Assembly (NCBI GenBank): GCA_023245995.1
Contig: JAHFJH010000003.1
Location: 1,585-65,584, forward strand
Length of the DNA stretch: 64,000 nt
From: Candidatus Doudnabacteria bacterium
GTDB taxonomy: Bacteria; Patescibacteriota; Doudnabacteria; UBA920
Direction of reading: 5' to 3'
The position numbers and the translations under genes are program-made. A model generated the notes under the pieces. That model did no database searches, had not been told where the DNA came from, and saw nothing but the letters and a program-made list of their open reading frames with translations. Positions 47,239 to 56,640 of the stretch are shown one piece after another (the stretch's first letter is position 1; every line of letters starts with the position of its first letter).

Positions 47239-49503
47239 CTACCTATGTCCATGAGAACTGCCACGTCCACCTCGGTCGTGACTTCCACTGTGACCTCCAC
47301 CACTAAATGGCCTGCGCGGCGGGCGGGAGTCAAAGTTATTGCTCTGCGATGCAGCTAACTGCTCAGGCGTGGCTTCTAGCGCAAATGGTTTATGAGTTAG
47401 GTTTACCCGGCCTTGGTCATCTATTTCACTAACCTGCACTTTAAGCTTGTCGCCAACATTTACTACATCTTCCACGCGGTTAACTCGGTAGTTTGCAAGC
47501 TGAGAAATATGCACCAAACCTTCTTTGCCGGGTAGCACTTCCACAAACGCCCCAAAGTCCATAAGTCTGGTTACAGTACCTTCATAAACTTCACCGGCTT
47601 CTACTTCTTTAACTATATTTTGAATCCACTCAACTGCCTTCTTTGAAGCTTCAGCGTCAGCAGATACAACCATCACCTGACCACTGTCCTCTATGTCTAT
47701 TTTTACACCCGTGGCGGCAATAATTGCATTTATAACTTTTCCACCAGTACCAATAACTTCGCGAATCTTGTCTGGCTTTATAAAGAAGCTGGTAATGCGC
47801 GGCGCGTACTTGGACATTTCCGTACGTGGCGCAGAGAGTGCTTCTTTCATTTTGGAAATTATGTGCATGCGTCCAGGCTTGGCCTGCAAAATAGCCTTAG
47901 CCAAAATTTCCGGTGTTAAACCCTTAACTTTTATGTCCATTTGCATGGCGCTTACGCCTTTTTCGTTTCCGGTAACTTTAAAGTCCATGTGTCCGTTAAA
48001 GTCTTCAATACCGGCAATATCTGTAAGCACTTTAAAGTTACTTGGGTTGCTTTCGTCCATTACAAGACCCATGGCAACCCCACCAATAATTTCGGTTATA
48101 GGTACACCTGCGTCCATAAGTGCAAGACTTGAACCGCAAGTGCTTGCCATGGAAGTAGAGCCGTTGCTTGCAATAGCCTCACTCACCAAACGCATAGTGT
48201 AAGGGAAATCTTCTGAGGCAGGAAGTGCGCCGGAAGCCTCTATAGCTTTTTCTGCAAGTGCACCATGGCCAATTTCACGGCGACCAGGACCCCTAAGTGG
48301 CGAAACTTCACCCACCGAGTACCCAGGCATGTTGTAATGGTGAATATAGCGCTTGGCAGTTCCGTCGACCGGGTCTTCTATGCCGTCTAACATTTGTTCG
48401 TCACTTTTACTTCCGAGTGTAACCACAGTAAGTACCTGCGTTTCACCACGAGTAAAAAGTGCGGAACCATGCGTACGTGGAAGTATGCCCACTTCGCAAA
48501 TTACTTCGCGTGTCTCGTCTAAGCGCCTGCCATCTACCCGACGTTCATTTTCCAAAATTTGCTTTTGCTGATACTTCTTTAAAACCTTATCTATACACTC
48601 GTTTACTTCCCGCTCAATGTTTACTTTTTCCAAACCTTCTGGGAAGCTGGCTGTAACTTTTTCAAAAATAGATTTTATGAGCGCGTTAATGTGTTCTTCA
48701 CGCTCGTCTTTGCTTTTTACATAAACTGCCTGCTCAATTTGCTCTGAAGTTAACAACTCTTTTACTTTTGCCATAACTTGTTCGTTTGGCAAAATATACG
48801 TACCCTCGCGGGACGGTTTTCCTGCTTGCGCTTTAAAGTCATGCTGTACTTGTGCCAAAGTCTTCAAAAATCCTTGCGCAAATTCCACACCGCCAATTAT
48901 TTCTTCTTCGCTTACAAGTTTAGCGCCGGCTTCTATCATCATTATATGTTCGCCCGTTCCAGACACAACTAAATCCAACGTACTCACACTACGTTGTTCG
49001 TGGGTTGGATTTACAACATACTGCCCATCTATTTTTCCAACACGCACCGCAGACACTGGTCCGTCGTAAGGTATGCCCGACAGCATAAGCGCCATGCTTC
49101 CTGCCGTTACAGCTAGCATGTCTGGGTCGTTTTCACCGTCTACAGAAAGCACGGTTACAACAATCTGAACATCGTTGCGCATACCGTCGCGAAATAGAGG
49201 CCGAAGTGTTCGGTCTATAACCCTACCTGTTAAAATAGCGTCGTCTGTTGCTCTGCCTTCGCGCTTTATCCAACGGCTACCTTTAATTTTACCCGCTGCA
49301 TAAAGCCGTTCTTCATAGTCCACCAAAAGTGGAAAATAATTCATACCTTCACGAGCCTTAGCACTCATAACCGCGGTTGCCAGTACTACTGTATCGCCAA
49401 GACGCGCTAAAACCGCCGCATCTGCCTGACGAGCCATGCGCCCAGTTTCAAAACTCATAGTAGCCTCACCCACCACGCACGATATAACCTTTTTTTCTAA
49501 CAT
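47239..49503 (-). CDS. pnp: polynucleotide phosphorylase
   Basis: Two RNase PH domains, KH and S1 domains, plus an RG-rich C-terminal tail (RPPRRPFSGGGHSGSHDRGGRGSSHGHR). 754 aa. Confidence 0.95.
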   Translation of the reverse strand: MLEKKVISCVVGEATMSFETGRMARQADAAVLARLGDTVVLATAVMSAKAREGMNYFPLLVDYEERLYAAGKIKGSRWIKREGRATDDAILTGRVIDRTLRPLFRDGMRNDVQIVVTVLSVDGENDPDMLAVTAGSMALMLSGIPYDGPVSAVRVGKIDGQYVVNPTHEQRSVSTLDLVVSGTGEHIMMIEAGAKLVSEEEIIGGVEFAQGFLKTLAQVQHDFKAQAGKPSREGTYILPNEQVMAKVKELLTSEQIEQAVYVKSKDEREEHINALIKSIFEKVTASFPEGLEKVNIEREVNECIDKVLKKYQQKQILENERRVDGRRLDETREVICEVGILPRTHGSALFTRGETQVLTVVTLGSKSDEQMLDGIEDPVDGTAKRYIHHYNMPGYSVGEVSPLRGPGRREIGHGALAEKAIEASGALPASEDFPYTMRLVSEAIASNGSTSMASTCGSSLALMDAGVPITEIIGGVAMGLVMDESNPSNFKVLTDIAGIEDFNGHMDFKVTGNEKGVSAMQMDIKVKGLTPEILAKAILQAKPGRMHIISKMKEALSAPRTEMSKYAPRITSFFIKPDKIREVIGTGGKVINAIIAATGVKIDIEDSGQVMVVSADAEASKKAVEWIQNIVKEVEAGEVYEGTVTRLMDFGAFVEVLPGKEGLVHISQLANYRVNRVEDVVNVGDKLKVQVSEIDDQGRVNLTHKPFALEATPEQLAASQSNNFDSRPPRRPFSGGGHSGSHDRGGRGSSHGHR

Positions 49504-49678
49504 TGTTTTACCTTTCTTGCCTCGCCAAAGCTTTCTTAAGCGAAGGCGGGCTTACCACGCCCCAGTCCAGACTAGCTGAACAAAGGCGGGTTTTCGTCGG
49601 TGCTACACAAGTAAACGATGACTAAAGAGTAGTCTTCGCGTTATCTGCATACCACCAACGATTAATTATAAATTGTTA

Positions 49679-49718
49679 GTAGTCCGTTGTGGATACCTAG
49701 TACCTACAACGGACTACT
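49679..49718 (-). promoter_or_regulatory. perfect 11-bp-stem hairpin in the rpsO-pnp intergenic region (candidate RNase III site or attenuator)
   Basis: gtagtccgttg-tggatacctagtaccta-caacggactac. It sits between the end of ORF 49729..50103 and the pnp leader. Confidence 0.5.
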
Positions 49719-49728
49719 ACAAACTGAC

Positions 49729-50103
49729 TTATGTTACATTCTTAAAAAACTCTTCAGCGTCAGGAGTACTACTATACACAATATGTTCTGCATTTGTAAG
49801 CTTCCGACCAGCCTGCGCAGTAGATGCTACTCCCTTGTGGTTATACCAATGGCGCCAACGGTCACGAAACTGTATGAAACTGCTAGAACCGTCCTCACCG
49901 TAAGTCTCATGTATAACTTCGTACTTTATTCTATTTGCAATAGCAATAAAGTCGCTACGCTGTTCAAGCGTTAAACTGCCATTAGTTTTGAAAACACGGT
50001 TCAACTCTTGAATTAAGCCATCCTCCGAAATACGCTTCACGATTTGCTCTGCCAAGTCAAACCACTCGCGTTCAAATATTTTTGGATCCGCGTCGTGACT
50101 CAT
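49729..50103 (-). CDS. hypothetical protein between rpsO and pnp
   Basis: 124-aa ORF starting 1 nt after rpsO. No motif recognised. Confidence 0.4.
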   Translation of the reverse strand: MSHDADPKIFEREWFDLAEQIVKRISEDGLIQELNRVFKTNGSLTLEQRSDFIAIANRIKYEVIHETYGEDGSSSFIQFRDRWRHWYNHKGVASTAQAGRKLTNAEHIVYSSTPDAEEFFKNVT

Positions 50104-50104
50104 A

Positions 50105-50431
50105 TTATTCTACTTCTTCTGGTGCGGGTTTCACCGGAGCCATTTTTGCAGGAGCAGCTGTCATGGCTACTTTAATTTTTAAGCGTTCTACCAATTTTTC
50201 AAAGCGCTTGGCGTCTTCTTGGCGTAAATATCGCAGGAGTCGACGGCGGTTGCCTACCATCTTCAAAAGTCCGCGCCTTGAGTGGTTGTCTTTTCTATGT
50301 ACCTTCAAGTGCTCACTTACGTCTTCTATTTCTTTGGTTAAAATAGCGATCTGCACTTCTGGACTGCCAGTGTCGTCTTTATGCGTACGAAATTTCTTTA
50401 TTATGGCGTCCTTATCTTGTTTACTTAGCAT
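50105..50431 (-). CDS. rpsO: 30S ribosomal protein S15 (with a short C-terminal extension)
   Basis: ...[48 protein letters not shown]... Canonical S15 core plus an A/P-rich tail. Confidence 0.9.
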
Positions 50432-50757
50432 GTATATTCCTTCGAGCCCACAATTGCCTCATCTCGGGAGGGCACTGCCCGCCGTAGTCTTGGCGAAGGA
50501 GGGTCTGCACGAAACCAGCTGCTTAAAGTCCGGTCCGTGGATTAATTAAACGTATTATACCAGTTTTACAGCTTTTTTAGCAAATGCAAACATTATGTAA
50601 TGTATACTATATATATGCTCAGTAAAGCTTTTTTGCACAACTTGAAAATTGTCCATAAATTGTAGAAGCCAAACCTGAGTAGTTAAATTATTATATTTAA
50701 ATTGCAGTTATAAAAATAACCGTTTACTAGGACAATTGCAAAGAAGTCTTACTGGGT

Positions 50758-51753
50758 ATGCAAGATAATGTAGAAAAAAATAGGCTACAAAAATACATTC
50801 GCGAGTTTCTGGAGTACTGTGAGATAGAAAAAAATAAGAGCAACCGAACTATTAGCAACTACGAACACTACCTTGGCAGATTTAGTAAATTTGCTAGCTC
50901 AGAAAGCGTAACTAAACCTGAGCAAATCAAATTGGAACTCGTCCGCAAGTACAGGCTCTACTTAAACAGATATGTAGACGATAAGGGCAACAAGTTAAAG
51001 CTCATCACCCAGAACTACCATGTAATAGCCCTCCGGGCTTTCCTTAAATACTTAAGTAAGAACGATATAGAAACTCTTGCACCAGAAAAAATAGAACTTG
51101 CAAAAAACCCTAGCCGCCAAATAGAAGCCCTAGAGCAAGACGAACTTGCAGGAGTAATGCAAGCAGTCGGCCAGGAACAAGAAGAAATTTTACGCCTGCG
51201 CGACCGCGCCATTTTGCTTACTCTATTTTCTACCGGTGTTCGTATAAGCGAACTAACTGCGCTAAAACGAGAAATGGTCAACGTAGACCGCGGCGAATTT
51301 ACCGTGCGGGGAAAAGGTGACAAACTACGTCTAGTATTTCTTTCACCCGATGCAGCAAACGCAATAAAGGCATATTTAAAAAAACGGATAGATAACCATC
51401 CGGGACTATTTATTGCCCACTCCAACATAGGAAAAGGTAAAGCAATGGAAGCAGAAATAACAGCGCAAGGTTTTAAGCGCTCGGAAAAAAACGACGGCAA
51501 GGCAGCTGGTCTATCGGCTAGAAGTATACAAAGACTTATACATAAGTACGCAATGCTTGCTGGCATTACCCACCACGTATCCCCTCACACTTTTCGCCAT
51601 AGCTTCGCAACAGATCTTTTGAGAAACGGCGCGGACATTCGAAGTGTACAAACCATGCTTGGCCACGCTAGCATTACCACAACACAAATTTACACCCATG
51701 TCACAAACGAAGGCCTACGCGAAATTCACAAAAAATTCCACGATAAAAAATAG
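50758..51753 (+). CDS. tyrosine site-specific recombinase (XerC/XerD / phage-integrase family)
   Basis: Catalytic residues in context: ...RDRAILLTLFSTGVRISEL..., HTFRHSFATDLLRNGADIRSVQTMLGHASITTTQIYTHV (R..H-R-H...Y). Confidence 0.85.
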   Translation: MQDNVEKNRLQKYIREFLEYCEIEKNKSNRTISNYEHYLGRFSKFASSESVTKPEQIKLELVRKYRLYLNRYVDDKGNKLKLITQNYHVIALRAFLKYLSKNDIETLAPEKIELAKNPSRQIEALEQDELAGVMQAVGQEQEEILRLRDRAILLTLFSTGVRISELTALKREMVNVDRGEFTVRGKGDKLRLVFLSPDAANAIKAYLKKRIDNHPGLFIAHSNIGKGKAMEAEITAQGFKRSEKNDGKAAGLSARSIQRLIHKYAMLAGITHHVSPHTFRHSFATDLLRNGADIRSVQTMLGHASITTTQIYTHVTNEGLREIHKKFHDKK

Positions 51754-51760
51754 CTTGATA

Positions 51761-52726
51761 TTAAGAATTAACCAGATTGGTAATCAAAGATGAAACCAAG
51801 TAACTCAGGCGTTTAGTATCGTGTCGTGCTATTGAATTATCAGTCCACAAATCAGCAGAAACCACACGCTCGTCGGTGCTATCTTTGGACCCACAAATTA
51901 TAGGATACTTACGCTCTGCCGCGTATTGCTGTAAAACTTCGTCTGAGGGAACTTGTGTATTCACTACGGCTTTGGCTATAGACCTACCGACATAAGATTC
52001 TAGTATATGTATGAGAGACTCTACAGTGCATCCTTGCATACCAGCACCCTCGGTTAACAAATTTGTAATGTATATTATTGGAGCATGTGAACTGACTATC
52101 GCCTCACGGACACCGTCTGGCAGCAAGTTAGGCAAAACGCTTGTGTAGAAACTACCAGGGCCCAAACATATAACTTGTGCGTTACGGATAGCAGCTAGGG
52201 CAGTATCTGATGCAGATACGGATTGTTCTAAATACAACTTTTCAACTACTTTGCCTTCGTATATCCCTACATCTACACTGGTTTCAGTCTTAAATACTTC
52301 GCCATCTGTATACCGAGCACATAAAACACTATGCTCATAGGTAATAGGAATAACCGTGCCTTTTACGGATAATAGTTGAGATAGTGCTACAACAGCCTCA
52401 GAAAAACTTCCGTAAACTTTCTCCAGTCCCAACAATAAAATGTTGCCTCCGGTATGCCCATTGTATTGAGGGTTGCGAATACGCCGCAATAAGATATCTC
52501 TGGCTTCCTGAGTATTTTCCGATAAAGCCAAAACACATTTAAGCACATCTCCCTGAGGGAGTGTACCAAACTTGTCTTTTAATTCGCCAGAACTACCACC
52601 CGTATCAAACATATTAACAAGCGCAGAAAGCTGAAGCCATGGATTATCTTTTAAACTGGTAAGTAGTGATGGCAAACCAGTTCCGCCGCCAATGCAAACC
52701 ACCTGTATGGGAGATATTTGTCGCAT
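51761..52726 (-). CDS. YvcK/CofD-family (UPF0052, gluconeogenesis factor-like) protein
   Basis: VVCIGGGTGLPSLL...NMFDTGGSSGEL are characteristic motifs of the CofD/YvcK family. Confidence 0.8.
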   Translation of the reverse strand: MRQISPIQVVCIGGGTGLPSLLTSLKDNPWLQLSALVNMFDTGGSSGELKDKFGTLPQGDVLKCVLALSENTQEARDILLRRIRNPQYNGHTGGNILLLGLEKVYGSFSEAVVALSQLLSVKGTVIPITYEHSVLCARYTDGEVFKTETSVDVGIYEGKVVEKLYLEQSVSASDTALAAIRNAQVICLGPGSFYTSVLPNLLPDGVREAIVSSHAPIIYITNLLTEGAGMQGCTVESLIHILESYVGRSIAKAVVNTQVPSDEVLQQYAAERKYPIICGSKDSTDERVVSADLWTDNSIARHDTKRLSYLVSSLITNLVNS

Positions 52727-52910
52727 ATATGTATTTAAAGAAATTAAATTGATATATTCTAATACCAGTATATTAAGTTAACTAATTTAAGCGGTCAAAA
52801 TCTAATTTGTAAAATTCATTATTCAGATAGTTGTAGCTTGTAATAGGTAACTTTTCATGCAACTAATAGATTATCCTTTTTAGTGGCGCAAAAACATAAA
52901 ACCGCGCAAA

Positions 52911-52976
52911 TTTACACCAACATACCAACGAAGGCCTACGCGAAATTCACAAAAAATTCCACGATAAAAAATAATA
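52911..52976 (+). repeat. degenerate duplicate of the recombinase gene's last ~65 nt
   Basis: tttacacc..acgaaggcctacgcgaaattcacaaaaaattccacgataaaaaata is almost identical to 51690-51753 (the 3' end of the Xer gene). It has a 1-nt length difference, so it is out of frame. Confidence 0.7.
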
Positions 52977-53103: not shown

Positions 53104-53349
53104 ATGGGGGACAAGCGAATAGCGACAGTTAGAGTTATTGTTATCACAGCAGTGCGGTATGCAAAAGGAGTAGAAGCGAACCTCAACGGCGGGGTAAATT
53201 TTTCTTGGGCAGAGGCAGAAAAATTCAACGCTTCATTGGCGCAACAATCCAACGCATCTTTCACTATTGACGGAGATTCCGAATACACAATTGATGAGCT
53301 ATCGGATATGCTAGCCACGCTTTATGCGTCCGCCAGTCGCGGAATGTGA
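53104..53349 (+). CDS. hypothetical small protein
   Basis: 81-aa ORF ending just before a strong convergent terminator hairpin. Confidence 0.3.
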   Translation: MGDKRIATVRVIVITAVRYAKGVEANLNGGVNFSWAEAEKFNASLAQQSNASFTIDGDSEYTIDELSDMLATLYASASRGM

Positions 53350-53360
53350 AACAACCAAAT

Positions 53361-53404
53361 AGAGTCTGACTGGAATACCTCTGTACAAATTCCAGTCAGA
53401 CTCT
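53361..53404. terminator. 16-bp perfect inverted repeat (bidirectional terminator between convergent genes)
   Basis: agagtctgactggaat-acctctgtacaa-attccagtcagactct. Confidence 0.55.
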
Positions 53405-53412
53405 CAAACAAA

Positions 53413-54039
53413 TTATCTTTTAATCTTAAACAATTTGAACAAAGCAATTCTGCTTTGTTTATTTTTTAGGACGTGATAAATTCCAGGAGAAATAGAAAGG
53501 AAAATAATTATAACTATTCCTGGAACAATATATTTTTCTACATTGGGCACTGTTGTGCCTAGCCAAAAACCAAGCAGGGTTAGACCTATAGCCCAAAGTA
53601 GCGTGCCGACTACGCTATAAACCAAAAACAAACCATATCGCATGCGTGAAAGACCCGCTACCACCGGACTAAAAGTTCTAACAACAGGCACGAAGCGAGC
53701 TATAACCACCGCCTTGCCACCGTGTCGCTCAAAAAACTCGTGACTACGACGCAAATGATCTGGATTAAAAAATATAGACTTGGGTCGAGTAAACAATTTA
53801 GGTCCAGCCAGTTTACCAATATGGTAACCTAAGTTGTCTCCAATAAATGCCGCGACAAACAAACCTAAACACAACCACCAAATATTAAGGTAACCCTGCG
53901 AAGCTAAAATACCTGCAGTAAAAAGCAAACTATCCCCTGGCAAGAAAAAACCAACAAGGAGTCCTGTCTCGGCAAAAATTATTCCAAAAACGCCTATGTA
54001 ACCTGCAGTTTTAACTAACGAGGGAACGTCTATAAACAT
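53413..54039 (-). CDS. DedA-family (VTT domain) membrane protein
   Basis: ...GVFGIIFAETGLLVGFFLPGDSLLFTAG... is the DedA signature. 208 aa. Confidence 0.8.
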   Translation of the reverse strand: MFIDVPSLVKTAGYIGVFGIIFAETGLLVGFFLPGDSLLFTAGILASQGYLNIWWLCLGLFVAAFIGDNLGYHIGKLAGPKLFTRPKSIFFNPDHLRRSHEFFERHGGKAVVIARFVPVVRTFSPVVAGLSRMRYGLFLVYSVVGTLLWAIGLTLLGFWLGTTVPNVEKYIVPGIVIIIFLSISPGIYHVLKNKQSRIALFKLFKIKR

Positions 54040-54157: not shown

Positions 54158-54234
54158 GGCCTCGTAGCTCAGCTGGATAGAGCGTCAGCTTGCGGAGCTG
54201 AAGGTCGCAGGTTCAAATCCCGCCGAGGTCACCA
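54158..54234 (+). tRNA. tRNA-Arg (anticodon GCG as read)
   Basis: GGCCTCG/CGAGGTC acceptor stem, D-arm GTAGCTCAGCTGGATAGAGC (Arg-like), anticodon loop TTGCGGA, T-loop TTCAAAT, CCA encoded. Confidence 0.7.
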
Positions 54235-54237
54235 TAA

Positions 54238-54269
54238 TAAATCCCGCATTGACGGGATTTATTTTTAAA
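54238..54269 (+). terminator. intrinsic terminator after tRNA-Arg
   Basis: aaatcccg-cattga-cgggattt followed by atttttaaa. Confidence 0.5.
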
Positions 54270-54310
54270 CTATTTGCTAGTACCGTTACACTATATATAA
54301 TATAAATATA

Positions 54311-54385
54311 CGCCCTTGTAGCTCAATGGATAGAGCAGTGCTCTTCTAAGGCATTGATGTTGGTTCGATTCCAACCGAGGGCACC
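54311..54385 (+). tRNA. tRNA-Arg (anticodon UCU)
   Basis: GCCCTTG/CGAGGGC acceptor stem, D-arm GCTCAATGGATAGAGC, anticodon stem GTGCT/GGCAT with loop CTTCTAA, T-arm GTTGG-TTCGATT-CCAAC, CCA encoded. Confidence 0.85.
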
Positions 54386-54422
54386 ATTCGACTCGCGTTT
54401 CGTAAAACCTCAACACTCGCTC

Positions 54423-54737
54423 ATGGTCTACGACGAGCAGCAAAGTACTAAGTTTATACATAATAAAGTCGAATGCCCTGTCGTTCGAGACCCTGAGGGG
54501 TCCTCAGACCCTCGAAGGGAGCCTGTCGAAGGACAATACTATTTTTACATTCTGGAATGCAAAGATTCATCATTATATTGTGGCTCTTCAAATAATTTAA
54601 GCACTAGATTGCATACACACAACATAGGCAAGGCCGCTGAATGGACAGCTATCCGCAGACCTCTTCAACTTGTATACTACGAAAGCTACTATACATTAGT
54701 AGGTGCTCGCAAACGAGAACAGCAGGTAAAGGGTTGA
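54423..54737 (+). CDS. GIY-YIG (YhbQ/UPF0213-like) small nuclease
   Basis: YYFYILECKDSSLYCGSSNNLSTRLHTHNIGKAAEWTAIRRPLQLVYYESYYTLVGARKREQQVKG. The GIY-YIG motifs (Y..Y, G.T.[DN]L..R...H) are intact. Start set to MVYDEQQ, because the track ORF's N-terminus overlaps tRNA-Arg. Confidence 0.7.
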   Translation: MVYDEQQSTKFIHNKVECPVVRDPEGSSDPRREPVEGQYYFYILECKDSSLYCGSSNNLSTRLHTHNIGKAAEWTAIRRPLQLVYYESYYTLVGARKREQQVKG

Positions 54738-55489: not shown

Positions 55490-55855
55490 TTACTTCTCAC
55501 TTTCCGTATCTTCTTTTATTGCTTTTTCAATTACTTCTTCAATAGGCCTGCGGGCAGAAGGGTCGGTGTCACTTACAGGAAAATTGGCGAACTTCATAAA
55601 ATGCCTCACCTTACCACTTGGGTACTCTACTGCAACTGTCATGTCGTGGTCATAAAGCCTGAAGTTATATCCTTCTTGCAACATTCGTTCAGCCATGTCC
55701 TTAATAGGCCGGTAAAATTTCCTTTCACTTTCGGGTTCTTTGGGCACATCAACTCCGGACTCAAACTTTCCAGTAGCCGTTTCAGTTAACTCATGGCCAG
55801 TCGCGTCTAATTTTTCACCCCCACTGCCTAAGGAACTTTGTTCAATATTTACCAT
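55490..55855 (-). CDS. hypothetical protein
   Basis: 121-aa ORF. No motif recognised. Confidence 0.35.
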   Translation of the reverse strand: MVNIEQSSLGSGGEKLDATGHELTETATGKFESGVDVPKEPESERKFYRPIKDMAERMLQEGYNFRLYDHDMTVAVEYPSGKVRHFMKFANFPVSDTDPSARRPIEEVIEKAIKEDTESEK

Positions 55856-55953
55856 ATTTGTATACTTAATTCTATATAACTATTATATACCCGAAATTAC
55901 CTGCACTATAACAGACTTTTGGGTTCGTAAACCACTAAAAATACTTCGAACAA

Positions 55954-56640
55954 ATGGAACCAATTCGCGTGCAAAAATTTTTAAGTGAACGAGGTGTCGC
56001 CTCTAGGCGCAAAGCCGAGGAGTTTATTCGTAGCGGACAGGTAAGCATAAACGGGCGCAGAGCAAAACTTGGGGACAAAATAAATCCCGAAACAGACAAA
56101 ATAACCGTATACGGAAAAGTAGTTGAACATCTGGATGAAAAAATTTATATAGCGCTCAACAAACCAAAAGAATACGTCGTAAGCAAAAGCGACCCGCAAC
56201 ACAGACGGACTATTTTTAAACTCCTGCCCAAAGAACTGCAAAACAAAGTTTGGAATGTAGGTCGTTTAGACTACCATACCGAAGGCCTGCTTATTCTAAC
56301 TAACGACGGAGAACTGACTCAACAACTAGCACACCCATCGAACGAACACGAAAAAGAATATGAAGTGTTGGTAAATATGGCCCCAAATGACGCCCAGCTG
56401 CAACGTCTGCGCGAGGGAGTAGAAATTGCCACGGGTACAACGTATCCGGCAAAAGTAAAAAATAAAGGCACCACCATAAATATTACTATTCATGAAGGCA
56501 AAAAACGCCAAGTTAGACGCATGATAGAAACAGTCGGCCTAAAAGTAAAAAACTTAAAACGCACCCGCATAAATAAACTAAAACTGCCAGATATCCCTCC
56601 CGGACAATATAAGGAAGTACAAAAATCGGATATACTATAA
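55954..56640 (+). CDS. pseudouridine synthase, RsuA/RluB family (S4 domain + catalytic domain)
   Basis: S4-like N-terminus (RVQKFLSERGVASRRKAEEFIRSGQVSING) and the catalytic-Asp motif VGRLDYHTEGLLILTNDGEL. Confidence 0.85.
   Translation: MEPIRVQKFLSERGVASRRKAEEFIRSGQVSINGRRAKLGDKINPETDKITVYGKVVEHLDEKIYIALNKPKEYVVSKSDPQHRRTIFKLLPKELQNKVWNVGRLDYHTEGLLILTNDGELTQQLAHPSNEHEKEYEVLVNMAPNDAQLQRLREGVEIATGTTYPAKVKNKGTTINITIHEGKKRQVRRMIETVGLKVKNLKRTRINKLKLPDIPPGQYKEVQKSDIL

What the first reader, a model, noticed from the sequence alone, without database searches (positions are those of the whole stretch)
51690..52976. yvcK/CofD-like gene bracketed by a duplicated recombinase 3' end
The last ~65 nt of the Xer/integrase gene, including its stop, recur 1.2 kb downstream as an out-of-frame near-copy. 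The two copies flank a single oppositely oriented yvcK-like gene and a 300-bp AT-rich noncoding stretch. This looks like a footprint of site-specific recombination at the integrase's own 3' end. It could also be a remnant of a second, deleted integrase copy, or a small integrated cassette.
Basis: seen in the sequence. Interest (0 to 1): 0.5.

Follow-up and report, generated by a model that had tools for sequence, protein, structure and literature searches.

The report
Orphaned xer tail beside inserted yvcK
A 67-base leftover copy of the end of a housekeeping recombinase gene marks where a horizontally exchanged 1.2-kb yvcK gene block was recombined into the chromosome of an uncultured candidate-phyla-radiation bacterium; it is most likely an ordinary recombination scar, not a new kind of mobile element.

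Summary
The repeat is real. The last 68 nt of the Xer-type recombinase gene (51685-51752) recur at 52907-52973. The match is 12 nt exact, then a scrambled 9/8-nt patch with a 1-nt deletion, then 47 nt exact. These are the only two copies in 64 kb, and the pair is present in four independent assemblies.

Six related genomes are empty sites, with xer running straight into a terminator hairpin. So the yvcK block is an insertion at the xer stop codon.

Synonymous divergence from the one other genome with this arrangement (L018) is 0.5 for yvcK but saturated (about 2) for xer. The block therefore moved horizontally.

Copy 2 is joined through a 5-nt CAAAT overlap to a piece of the native post-stop/hairpin sequence. 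L018 has a different xer-tail duplication (81 nt) bounding a PIN toxin-antitoxin cassette.

I found no convincing dif-like palindrome, no clear constraint on synonymous sites, no GC-skew switch and no fixed boundary. About 60 other Xer loci have no duplication.

Best reading: a scar of homologous plus illegitimate recombination (single crossover or 3'-end displacement) at the edge of a conserved gene. Xer-catalysed cassette insertion is not excluded (about 0.1). Interest is low to moderate.

The parts
50758..51753 (+). Xer-type tyrosine recombinase gene (331 aa). It is the housekeeping single Xer of this Patescibacteria clade and serves as the conserved anchor gene.
   Evidence: Pfam Phage_integrase 130 bits plus SAM-like N-terminal domain. 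Best NCBIfam matches are XerC/XerD at about 220 bits, below the equivalog cut-offs. The divergent rpsO-xer arrangement, mostly with pnp beyond, is kept in about 45 loci down to 45% identity.
51685..51753 (+). Copy 1: the functional 3' end of xer (Q-I-Y-T-H-V-T-N-E-G-L-R-E-I-H-K-K-F-H-D-K-K-stop, TAG). It includes the catalytic Tyr codon.
   Evidence: It shares the CTA Leu codon and the TAG stop with L018 copy B, the other xer tail that directly abuts yvcK.
51761..52726 (-). yvcK (CofD-related, UDP-GlcNAc-binding YvcK family), 321 aa. This is the cargo of the inserted block.
   Evidence: TIGR01826 239.8 bits against cut-off 196; PF01933 218 bits. 96% aa and 88% nt identity to L018 yvcK. dS 0.50 against about 2.1 (saturated) for xer.
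52727..52811 (.). yvcK upstream (promoter) region, part of the shared block.
   Evidence: Collinear with L018 4069-4153 inside the 88%-identity block. Promoter-like sites on the minus strand at 52813-52784 and 52798-52770 (consensus matches only).
52823..52852 (.). Tentative decayed copy of the loop, right arm and downstream flank of the native xer terminator hairpin.
   Evidence: 22/30 identity to L018 'CAAATATTTGCAGGGTGTTATCGGTAGCTT'; 4 of 1000 shuffles reach the score. Tentative.
52877..52911 (.). Remnant of the native sequence that follows the xer stop codon in relatives (post-stop, left arm and loop of the terminator hairpin). It ends in CAAAT.
   Evidence: 29/35 identity to L018 4148-4182, 0 of 1000 shuffles. 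Also matches the post-stop sequence of empty-site relatives L073 (0 of 1000) and L019 (3 of 1000).
52907..52974 (+). Copy 2: orphaned, frameshifted xer 3' end (last 67 nt plus TAA). Its first 5 nt (CAAAT) overlap the hairpin-loop remnant, which marks a microhomology joint.
   Evidence: It has ACC AAC and TAA-TAG like relatives L019, L006 and L008, and alignment to L006/L008 runs about 10 nt past the stop. A promoter-like TTCACA-18-AATAAT lies inside it at 52946-52975 on the plus strand (unproven).
53104..53349 (+). orf81, a small ORF with no family match. It is the first gene after copy 2 and is followed by a perfect 16-bp hairpin (53361-53404).
   Evidence: inverted repeat I4. It is called as a gene in the source contig. 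No detectable similarity to orf129/130, which follow xer in L004 and L007.
53413..54039 (-). dedA (VTT domain), the conserved right-hand flank of the variable islet downstream of xer.
   Evidence: Orthologues at 73-85% identity lie downstream of xer in L004/L020, L007, L008, L019, L021 and L022.

Best explanation
The segment is a recombination scar at the border of a conserved gene. The DNA just downstream of the housekeeping xer gene is a variable islet in this Patescibacteria clade.

A yvcK block (xer tail, yvcK, its promoter region, and the native post-stop/hairpin sequence) has been exchanged horizontally between lineages. It sits directly after the xer stop codon.

In this lineage a further event joined the hairpin loop at the right end of that block to position -67 of an xer gene, across a 5-nt CAAAT microhomology. 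That left two tails:
- copy 1, functional, with a TAG stop and abutting yvcK;
- copy 2, an orphaned 67-nt tail with TAA-TAG that continues into the local downstream DNA (orf81, dedA).

Two mechanisms give this topology. One is a single (Campbell-type) homologous crossover between the chromosomal xer tail and a circularised fragment carrying [xer tail, yvcK, half hairpin]. The other is homology-facilitated illegitimate recombination, anchored in xer, that displaced the resident tail downstream. Both depend on general recombination functions and are not catalysed by Xer.

Copy 2 no longer codes for anything. The 47-nt perfect tract is best explained by a recent event or by gene conversion between the copies. 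Copy 2 may incidentally supply a promoter for orf81.

Shown: the insertion, the horizontal exchange, the orphan tail, and the homologies at the junctions. Inferred: the order of events and the enzymes involved.
For: 1. Empty sites. L019 (Xer 89%), L073 (88%), L006 and L008 have the xer stop followed directly by a terminator hairpin and a Zn-ribbon gene. L004 and L007 have orf129/130 there instead. None has yvcK.
2. Horizontal exchange. Between the window and L018, yvcK has pS 0.37 (dS 0.50) while xer has pS 0.71 (dS about 2.1). Nucleotide identity is 88% over the block, 79.6% over xer and 67% over rpsO-orf124.
3. In another relative (L011) yvcK lies next to the rluB homologue, so its position beside xer is derived.
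4. Window 52877-52911 matches the native post-stop/hairpin sequence (29/35, 0 of 1000 shuffles). It abuts copy 2 through a shared CAAAT.
5. Copy 2 carries relatives' states (ACC AAC; TAA TAG A, as in L019). Copy 1 and L018 copy B share TAG and CTA.
6. L018 has a different duplication, 81 nt and 76/81 identical, bounding a PIN toxin-antitoxin cassette. So the boundaries are not fixed.
7. Long identity tracts (47 nt here, 45 nt in L018) next to diverged tracts are what heteroduplex repair or gene conversion gives. A 6-8-bp recombinase overlap would not.
8. Precedents. Single crossover of circular DNA duplicates the homologous segment, and HFIR junctions carry 3-10-bp microhomology (PMC3240628). 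Strings of orphaned 3' ends arise by displacement at Rhs and T6SS loci (PMC5361080).
Against: - All differences between the two copies lie in one 9-nt patch, with 0 in the other 59 nt. A simple donor-versus-recipient model predicts scattered synonymous differences, so conversion, near-identical partners or an error-prone joint must be added.
- 67 nt is short for RecA-dependent crossover.
- Two tail duplications in the only two genomes that carry this yvcK block could hint at site preference.
- The gene involved is itself a recombinase, and one single-Xer system (XerS/difSL) does have its site adjacent to the gene (PMC5357621).
- Competence or recombination genes of this organism were not examined.
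Confidence: 0.6

Rival explanations
1. Xer-catalysed site-specific insertion (IMEX-like, dif-module-like or integron-like). On this view the xer 3' end contains the recombinase's own recombination site. Recombinase-less circular cassettes (yvcK here; the PIN toxin-antitoxin pair in L018) integrate there, and each leaves a direct repeat of the site.
For: - Direct repeats flank cassettes that lack their own recombinase.
- There are two different cassettes with xer-tail repeats in two lineages.
- The perfect-identity tracts of the two cases overlap on AACGAAGGCCT.
- The core holds an imperfect palindrome, CGCGAAATT-7-AATTCCACG, 7/9 matched; 14 of 500 shuffles of the 46-nt core do as well.
- Two-fold degenerate codons in the tail are slightly less variable than elsewhere (0.32 against 0.42, P=0.02).
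- Precedent: xerS is adjacent to difSL, and IMEXs integrate at dif using host Xer (PMC5357621).
Against: - Left boundaries differ (-81, versus -67, or -72 with the overlap).
- The left joint of copy 2 is a microhomology with the hairpin loop, and the yvcK block in L018 has no xer-like repeat on its right side.
- The palindrome is weak (53 of 500 shuffles over the 81-nt tail), largely follows from the conserved peptide REIHKKFH, and degrades in relatives.
- Codons with three-fold or higher degeneracy vary as freely as in the rest of the gene (0.663 against 0.659).
- GC skew is negative across all 64 kb, so the locus is not at a terminus.
- About 60 other loci with the same protein tail have no duplication, although different genes are inserted downstream.
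- The nearest relatives of the PIN cassette are not next to xer.
- No viral, phage or plasmid match.
Confidence: 0.1
2. A purely intrachromosomal rearrangement. Slipped or unequal exchange at the CAAAT microhomology, between the hairpin loop and xer position -67, made a tandem duplication. Either the whole 1221-nt unit was duplicated, or a small unit of about 112 nt (tail plus post-stop) before yvcK arrived. Partial deletion or decay followed. No foreign DNA took part in the duplication step.
For: - 59 of 59 nt outside the 9-nt patch are identical between the copies, including the lineage-specific CTA codon. That fits two copies from one genome.
- TAATAGATTA at 52863-52872 equals L019's stop plus post-stop sequence, and TAATAGA recurs after copy 2. 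This is compatible with a duplicated tail-plus-post-stop unit.
- Copy 2 shows about 0.05 changes per site, far less than the roughly 0.25 per lineage implied by yvcK dS. The duplication is therefore younger than the arrival of the block (inference).
Against: - Duplication of the whole unit needs a second, very precise deletion to remove the second yvcK.
- The sequence after copy 2 is not demonstrably homologous to the post-stop remnant (334-511 of 2000 shuffles do as well).
- TAATAGATTA alone is weak evidence (17 of 1000; 100 of 1000 when the query is extended).
Confidence: 0.2
3. Copy 2 is kept because it now works as a regulatory element, for example a promoter or 5' leader for orf81, or an upstream element of yvcK. 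Selection rather than recency would then explain the 47-nt perfect tract.
For: - A sigma-70-like match, TTCACA-18-AATAAT (10 of 12), lies inside copy 2 at 52946-52975, about 130 nt upstream of orf81. The TAA (not TAG) of copy 2 creates the AATAAT.
- Changes in copy 2 are confined to its 5' part.
Against: - The promoter scan finds no more sites than in shuffled sequence (5 found, 5.5 expected).
- orf81 has no homologues or family and may not be a gene.
- This reading does not explain how the duplication arose. It is compatible with any of the other explanations.
Confidence: 0.1

Closest known systems
Orphaned 3' ends from '3'-end (C-terminal) displacement' at Rhs/CDI and T6SS effector-immunity loci, attributed to homology-facilitated illegitimate recombination (PMC5361080)
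   Same: Incoming DNA is anchored by homology in a conserved upstream gene. The old 3' end is pushed downstream and survives as an orphan fragment. The inserted module is horizontally exchanged, and no dedicated recombinase is needed.
   Different: Here the anchor is a housekeeping recombinase gene and the tail is invariant in protein sequence. Nothing is diversified, the orphan is only 67 nt and non-coding, and the cargo is a metabolic or cell-wall regulator (yvcK), not a toxin-immunity pair.
Campbell-type single-crossover integration of a circular DNA, which duplicates the homologous segment (observed experimentally as 109-950-bp lacZ duplications, PMC3240628)
   Same: Direct repeats of the homologous segment flank the insert. 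One copy restores the gene and the other is a truncated remnant. The circle-closure joint is an illegitimate junction.
   Different: The homology is only about 67 nt, and the circular intermediate is hypothetical here.
IMEXs and dif modules: elements that use host Xer at dif or dif-like sites (PMC5357621, PMC7399989)
   Same: Small recombinase-less modules, including toxin-antitoxin modules, are bounded by repeats associated with the Xer system. Successive modules sit in tandem (L018).
   Different: The repeat is the coding 3' end of xer, not a 28-31-bp dif-like site. There is no convincing dyad symmetry, the boundaries vary, the locus is not at a skew switch, and Acinetobacter dif modules have sites in alternating orientation.
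Genomic islands integrated into the 3' end of a target gene (tRNA or tmRNA type attL/attR)
   Same: The insert is flanked by a direct repeat of the target gene's 3' end, so the gene stays intact.
   Different: There is no integrase inside the 1.2-kb insert, and the repeat boundary is a microhomology joint to native flanking sequence rather than an attP arm.

Membership tests
Xer-type tyrosine recombinase (the gene at 50758-51753) | Tyrosine-recombinase catalytic domain plus an N-terminal SAM-like core-binding domain | tested here: met
   PF00589 130.3 bits and PF02899 37.2 bits. HTFRHS and the LGH...TQIYTH motif with the catalytic Tyr are visible in the translation.
Xer-type tyrosine recombinase (the gene at 50758-51753) | Scores above the XerC or XerD equivalog cut-off | tested here: not met
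   TIGR02224 scores 220.5 against cut-off 335; TIGR02225 scores 213.4 against 330. It is best called a Xer-like single recombinase, not XerC or XerD proper.
Xer-type tyrosine recombinase (the gene at 50758-51753) | Housekeeping, vertically inherited gene rather than a mobile-element integrase | tested here: met
   The divergent rpsO-xer arrangement, mostly with pnp beyond, is kept in about 45 loci spanning 45-91% identity.
YvcK (CofD-related, UDP-GlcNAc-binding) | Score above the curated cut-off of TIGR01826, and not F420 CofD | tested here: met
   TIGR01826 scores 239.8 against 196. TIGR01819 (F420 cofD) scores 24 against 257.
IMEX / dif module (Xer-exploiting element) | Flanking sites are dif-like: two half-sites of about 11 bp with dyad symmetry around a 6-11-bp central region (PMC5357621) | tested here: inconclusive
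   The best candidate is 9-7-9 with 7/9 complementarity. 14 of 500 shuffles of the 46-nt core and 53 of 500 of the 81-nt tail do as well. It largely follows from the coding sequence and weakens in relatives.
IMEX / dif module (Xer-exploiting element) | Integration at the chromosomal dif in the replication terminus region | tested here: not met
   GC skew is negative throughout the 64-kb window, with no switch near 51-53 kb. The rest of the genome was not available.
IMEX / dif module (Xer-exploiting element) | Independent insertions use the same site with constant boundaries | tested here: not met
   Repeat lengths are 81 nt (L018) and 67 nt (window; 72 counting the overlap). The right end of the yvcK block in L018 has no repeat.
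IMEX / dif module (Xer-exploiting element) | Recombination catalysed by the host Xer | not testable with these tools
   Needs in vitro binding and cleavage assays or in vivo excision assays.
Integron | IntI-type integrase, with cassettes inserted at an attI site beside the 5' end of intI and carrying attC sites | tested here: not met
   The integron-integrase model TIGR02249 scores 121.5 against 265. Insertions here are at the 3' end of the gene. No attC-like imperfect palindromes bound the cassettes.
Integrase-encoding island at a gene 3' end (attL/attR) | The element carries its own integrase and has a fixed att core | tested here: not met
   Only yvcK lies between the repeats. The left edge of copy 2 is a microhomology joint to native hairpin sequence.
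Recombination scar (single crossover, or HFIR 3'-end displacement) | Conserved anchor gene, orphan 3' fragment beyond the inserted DNA, and a 3-10-bp microhomology at the illegitimate joint (PMC3240628, PMC5361080) | tested here: met
   The anchor is xer. The orphan is at 52907-52974. CAAAT is shared by the hairpin-loop remnant and xer position -72 to -68. The joint is inferred from comparison with L018, L019 and L073.
Recombination scar (single crossover, or HFIR 3'-end displacement) | The inserted DNA is of horizontal origin | tested here: met
   dS is 0.50 for yvcK and about 2.1 for xer between the same two genomes. Six relatives are empty sites.
Recombination scar (single crossover, or HFIR 3'-end displacement) | The organism has DNA uptake and RecA-type recombination functions | not tested
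   Only 64 kb of the genome was available, and com/recA genes were not searched for.

The most novel reading that the evidence does not exclude
In this Patescibacteria clade the housekeeping single Xer recombinase may use a site embedded in the last 50 nt or so of its own gene. It would capture recombinase-less gene cassettes there (yvcK, a PIN toxin-antitoxin pair) and build small tandem arrays bounded by xer-tail repeats. That would amount to an integron-like or IMEX-like cassette platform on a chromosome-dimer-resolution enzyme.
Probability: 0.1. Interest if true: 0.7.

Novelty: new member of a known kind. Interest (0 to 1): 0.28.

Why it matters
As a scar, it is a clean, datable example of how gene order changes in uncultured, small-genome CPR bacteria.
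- A core cell-envelope regulator gene (yvcK) has been relocated and exchanged between lineages whose backbone genes are saturated at synonymous sites.
- The junctions record the mechanism: a homologous anchor plus a microhomology joint.
- This adds indirect evidence for transformation-like recombination in Patescibacteria.
- It identifies the xer-dedA interval as a variable islet.

If the minority reading were true (Xer acting at its own gene's tail), it would be a new cassette-capture system. It would also locate a Xer site in a phylum where dif is not, to my knowledge, characterised.

Tried and rejected
1. REP or terminator repeat: only 2 copies in 64 kb, and Rfam finds only tRNAs.
2. Phage or plasmid origin:
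- no viral contig carries the degenerate xer-tail pattern;
- the block has no blastn match in the phage or plasmid collections.
3. JGI metagenome scan for close relatives: nothing above 55% identity.
4. 'Split' Xer hits in L037 and L038 looked like the same kind of insertion. They turned out to be an intein inside xer, which is unrelated.
5. orf81 as a homologue of orf129/130, which follow xer in L004 and L007: no similarity.
6. A third xer-tail remnant between yvcK and copy 2: not significant.
7. Sequence after copy 2 as a second copy of the post-stop region: not significant.
8. A dif-like motif in the rpsO-xer spacer: only promoter-like TATAAT/TATACT blocks were seen by eye. Not pursued.
9. 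PIN toxin-antitoxin cassette relatives as recurrent xer-linked cassettes: the nearest ones (52-53%) sit next to an unrelated gene.
10. Mosaic breakpoints inside xer (sliding identity against L018, L019 and L073): no clear switch.
Full report
OBSERVATION

The region holds these genes:
- pnp (47239-49503, minus), orf124, and rpsO (50105-50431, minus);
- a Xer-type tyrosine recombinase gene (50758-51753, plus, 331 aa);
- a convergent yvcK (51761-52726, minus, 321 aa; TIGR01826 239.8 bits against cut-off 196);
- 377 nt of low-GC non-coding DNA;
- orf81 (53104-53349, plus), a perfect hairpin, and dedA (53413-54039, minus).

The repeat is real. The repeat finder gives 51703-51752 and 52924-52973 at 49/50 identity. 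The 46-nt core occurs exactly twice in the window at up to 3 mismatches, against 0 in shuffles.

Base by base:
- CAAATTTACACC is identical in both copies (51685-51696 = 52907-52918).
- CATGTCACA in copy 1 corresponds to AACAT-ACC in copy 2, with a 1-nt deletion that shifts the frame.
- 47 nt are identical (51706-51752 = 52927-52973).
- Copy 1 ends TAG. Copy 2 ends TAA TAG.

The structure is in independent assemblies (L001, L002). A 1234-nt Logan contig has exactly the length of the k=31 unitig between the two 47-nt exact repeats (my calculation).

WHAT THE RECOMBINASE IS

It is not a mobile-element integrase. The divergent rpsO-xer arrangement, mostly with pnp beyond rpsO, is kept in about 45 loci from 91% down to 45% identity. 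Record titles place these relatives in Patescibacteria (Doudnabacteria, Azambacteria, Yanofskybacteria, Paceibacterota).

The protein tail TQIYTHVTN..LRE.HKKFH.KK is nearly invariant across 120 homologues. The gene scores below the XerC/XerD equivalog cut-offs, as expected for a divergent single Xer.

COMPARATIVE ANATOMY

Six relatives with 81-89% identical Xer have no yvcK next to xer:
- In L019, L073, L006 and L008 the stop codon is followed within about 10 nt by a terminator hairpin and a convergent Zn-ribbon gene. L019 reads ...AAATAA TAGATTAAAAAAGATAACACCCTGCAAAGTAATTTGCAGGGTG.
- In L004 and L007 an unrelated orf129/130 follows the stop.
- Where the contig extends far enough (L004/L020, L007, L008, L019, L021, L022), dedA lies further downstream.

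So xer-to-dedA is a variable islet, and yvcK is an insertion.

In L011 (YvcK 75-84% identical) yvcK sits next to the homologue of the window's rluB-like gene (55942-56436, 85% aa). That suggests yvcK's usual position is about 3 kb away.

Only one other genome, L018 (4.4-kb contig), has yvcK beside xer. Its order is:
- xer, ending in copy A with a TAA stop;
- an 80-aa ORF plus a PIN_3 toxin gene (a toxin-antitoxin cassette);
- an 81-nt second xer tail, copy B, with a TAG stop;
- yvcK on the minus strand, then its upstream region;
- TAGTTAGGAAAAAACATAACACCCTGCAAATATTTGCAGGGTG (the native hairpin) and the Zn-ribbon gene.

Copies A and B are 76/81 identical. The first 45 nt are identical, and all 5 differences fall in the last 36 nt.

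Among about 60 loci carrying the Xer tail, only the window lineage and L018 have a second copy.

HORIZONTAL EXCHANGE

Between the window and L018:
- yvcK: 96% aa, 88% nt over 1141 nt, pS 0.37 (dS 0.50).
- xer: 91% aa, 79.6% nt, pS 0.71 (dS about 2.1, saturated).
- rpsO-orf124: 67% nt.

The high-identity block starts exactly at L018 copy B, which corresponds to window 51673. The block, xer tail included, therefore has a much more recent common ancestor than the genomes that carry it.

Codon states agree. Window copy 1 and L018 copy B, the two tails that abut yvcK, share the TAG stop. They also share the Leu codon CTA, where L018 copy A, L019 and L073 have CTC.

THE JUNCTIONS

Window 52877-52911 reads TTTTTAGTGGCGCAAAAACATAAAACCGCGCAAAT. 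It is 29/35 identical to the L018 sequence that follows the yvcK upstream region (0 of 1000 shuffles do as well). It also matches the post-stop sequence of empty-site relatives L073 and L019. So it is the native post-stop, left arm and loop of the xer terminator.

Where L018 continues with the right arm of the hairpin, the window continues with TTACACC..., which is xer from position -67. The 5 nt CAAAT are common to the hairpin loop and to xer positions -72 to -68. That is a classic microhomology joint.

Copy 2 itself looks like an xer end still in its original place:
- It has ACC AAC and TAA-TAG-A, as in L019.
- blastn alignments to L006 and L008 run about 10 nt beyond the stop.

A decayed copy of the hairpin's right half may also lie at 52823-52852 (22/30, 4 of 1000 shuffles). 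If real, the spacer is a patchwork of native downstream remnants. I could not establish further remnants.

MECHANISM

The topology is [xer with tail], [insert ending in an illegitimate joint], [orphan tail], [local downstream DNA]. Two processes produce it:
- A single homologous crossover between the chromosomal tail and a circularised fragment. This duplicates the homologous segment, as observed experimentally in PMC3240628.
- Homology-facilitated illegitimate recombination anchored in the conserved gene, which displaces the resident 3' end downstream. This has been proposed for orphan 3' ends at Rhs and T6SS loci (PMC5361080). HFIR joints carry 3-10-bp microhomology (PMC3240628).

L018 fits the same scheme, with the toxin-antitoxin cassette as the incoming DNA and [81-nt tail plus yvcK] as the displaced part.

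An inference on timing. Copy 2 has about 3 changes in 67 nt. The yvcK dS implies about 0.25 changes per neutral site per lineage since the block's common ancestor. So either the duplication is much younger than the block's arrival, or gene conversion has homogenised the 47-nt tract.

The clustering of all differences in 9 nt is not explained by simple neutral decay. It could be a single complex mutation at an error-prone joint. This remains unexplained.

TESTS OF THE SITE-SPECIFIC (XER-CATALYSED) READING

- Dyad symmetry. The best candidate is CGCGAAATT-7-AATTCCACG at 7/9. 14 of 500 shuffles of the core and 53 of 500 of the 81-nt tail do as well. It largely follows from the REIHKKFH codons and weakens in several relatives.
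- Nucleotide-level constraint. For invariant residues with three-fold or higher degeneracy, codon diversity in the last 22 codons equals the rest of the gene (0.663 against 0.659). Two-fold codons are slightly lower (0.32 against 0.42, P=0.02).
- Terminus. GC skew is negative over all 64 kb.
- Boundaries. They differ between the two cases, and the yvcK block in L018 has no repeat on its right.
- Mobile-element links. There are no viral, phage or plasmid matches. The nearest relatives of the PIN cassette are not next to xer.
- Points that keep the idea alive: two tail duplications in the two genomes with this block, the overlap of the identity tracts on AACGAAGGCCT, and the XerS/difSL precedent of a site adjacent to its gene (PMC5357621).

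I put this reading at about 0.1.

VERDICT

- The 'inserted cassette' and 'remnant of an integrase 3' end' parts of the interpretation are supported.
- 'Site-specific recombination at the integrase's own 3' end' is not supported.
- The feature is a new example of a known kind of recombination scar.
- It has some value as a record of horizontal exchange and gene relocation in CPR bacteria.
- Interest: 0.28.

Noticed in passing
L038 7974-10160; L037 7974-10163 (also L061, L070): In Yanofskybacteria-type relatives the orthologous xer encodes a 728-729-aa protein. A roughly 400-aa insertion interrupts the conserved HTLRH|S active-site motif. It starts with Cys, ends in HN followed by Ser, and contains a LAGLIDADG-like motif (LAGIYDAEGN), so it looks like an intein with a homing endonuclease inside the housekeeping Xer.
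   Followed up: partly
L018 2353-3016: A two-gene cassette (an 80-aa ORF plus a 152-aa PIN_3 toxin, overlapping) sits between the xer stop and an 81-nt second xer tail. It is a second, independent duplication of the xer 3' end, in the only other genome that has yvcK beside xer.
   Followed up: yes
window 47239-51753 and about 45 related loci: The divergent rpsO-xer arrangement, mostly with pnp beyond rpsO, is conserved across Patescibacteria down to 45% Xer identity. The rpsO-xer spacer ranges from 47 to more than 2000 nt. It often ends in a TGCGACATAA...TATAAT-like block just before xer. That is probably a promoter, but it resembles a dif half-site (GCGCATAA).
   Followed up: partly
L011 3-1546, compared with window 55942-56436: In a relative, yvcK lies divergently next to the homologue of the window's rluB-like pseudouridine synthase gene (85% aa). 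In the window an unrelated orf121 (55490-55855) occupies that position. This suggests yvcK moved about 3 kb within the same neighbourhood.
   Followed up: partly
window 53361-53404: A perfect 16-bp inverted repeat with a 12-nt loop lies between the convergent orf81 and dedA. It is likely a bidirectional terminator.
   Followed up: no
window 54158-54386 and 54354-54737: Two tRNA-Arg genes (anticodons GCG and TCT) lie 78 nt apart. The GIY-YIG ORF as listed overlaps the 3' end of the second tRNA, so its true start is probably further downstream.
   Followed up: no
window 51754-51760: xer and yvcK converge with only 7 nt between their stop codons and no terminator hairpin. In empty-site relatives a hairpin follows xer. 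Transcripts of the two genes probably overlap as antisense.
   Followed up: no
window 1-64000: GC skew is uniformly negative (about -0.1) over the entire 64 kb, so the window lies within one replichore.
   Followed up: no
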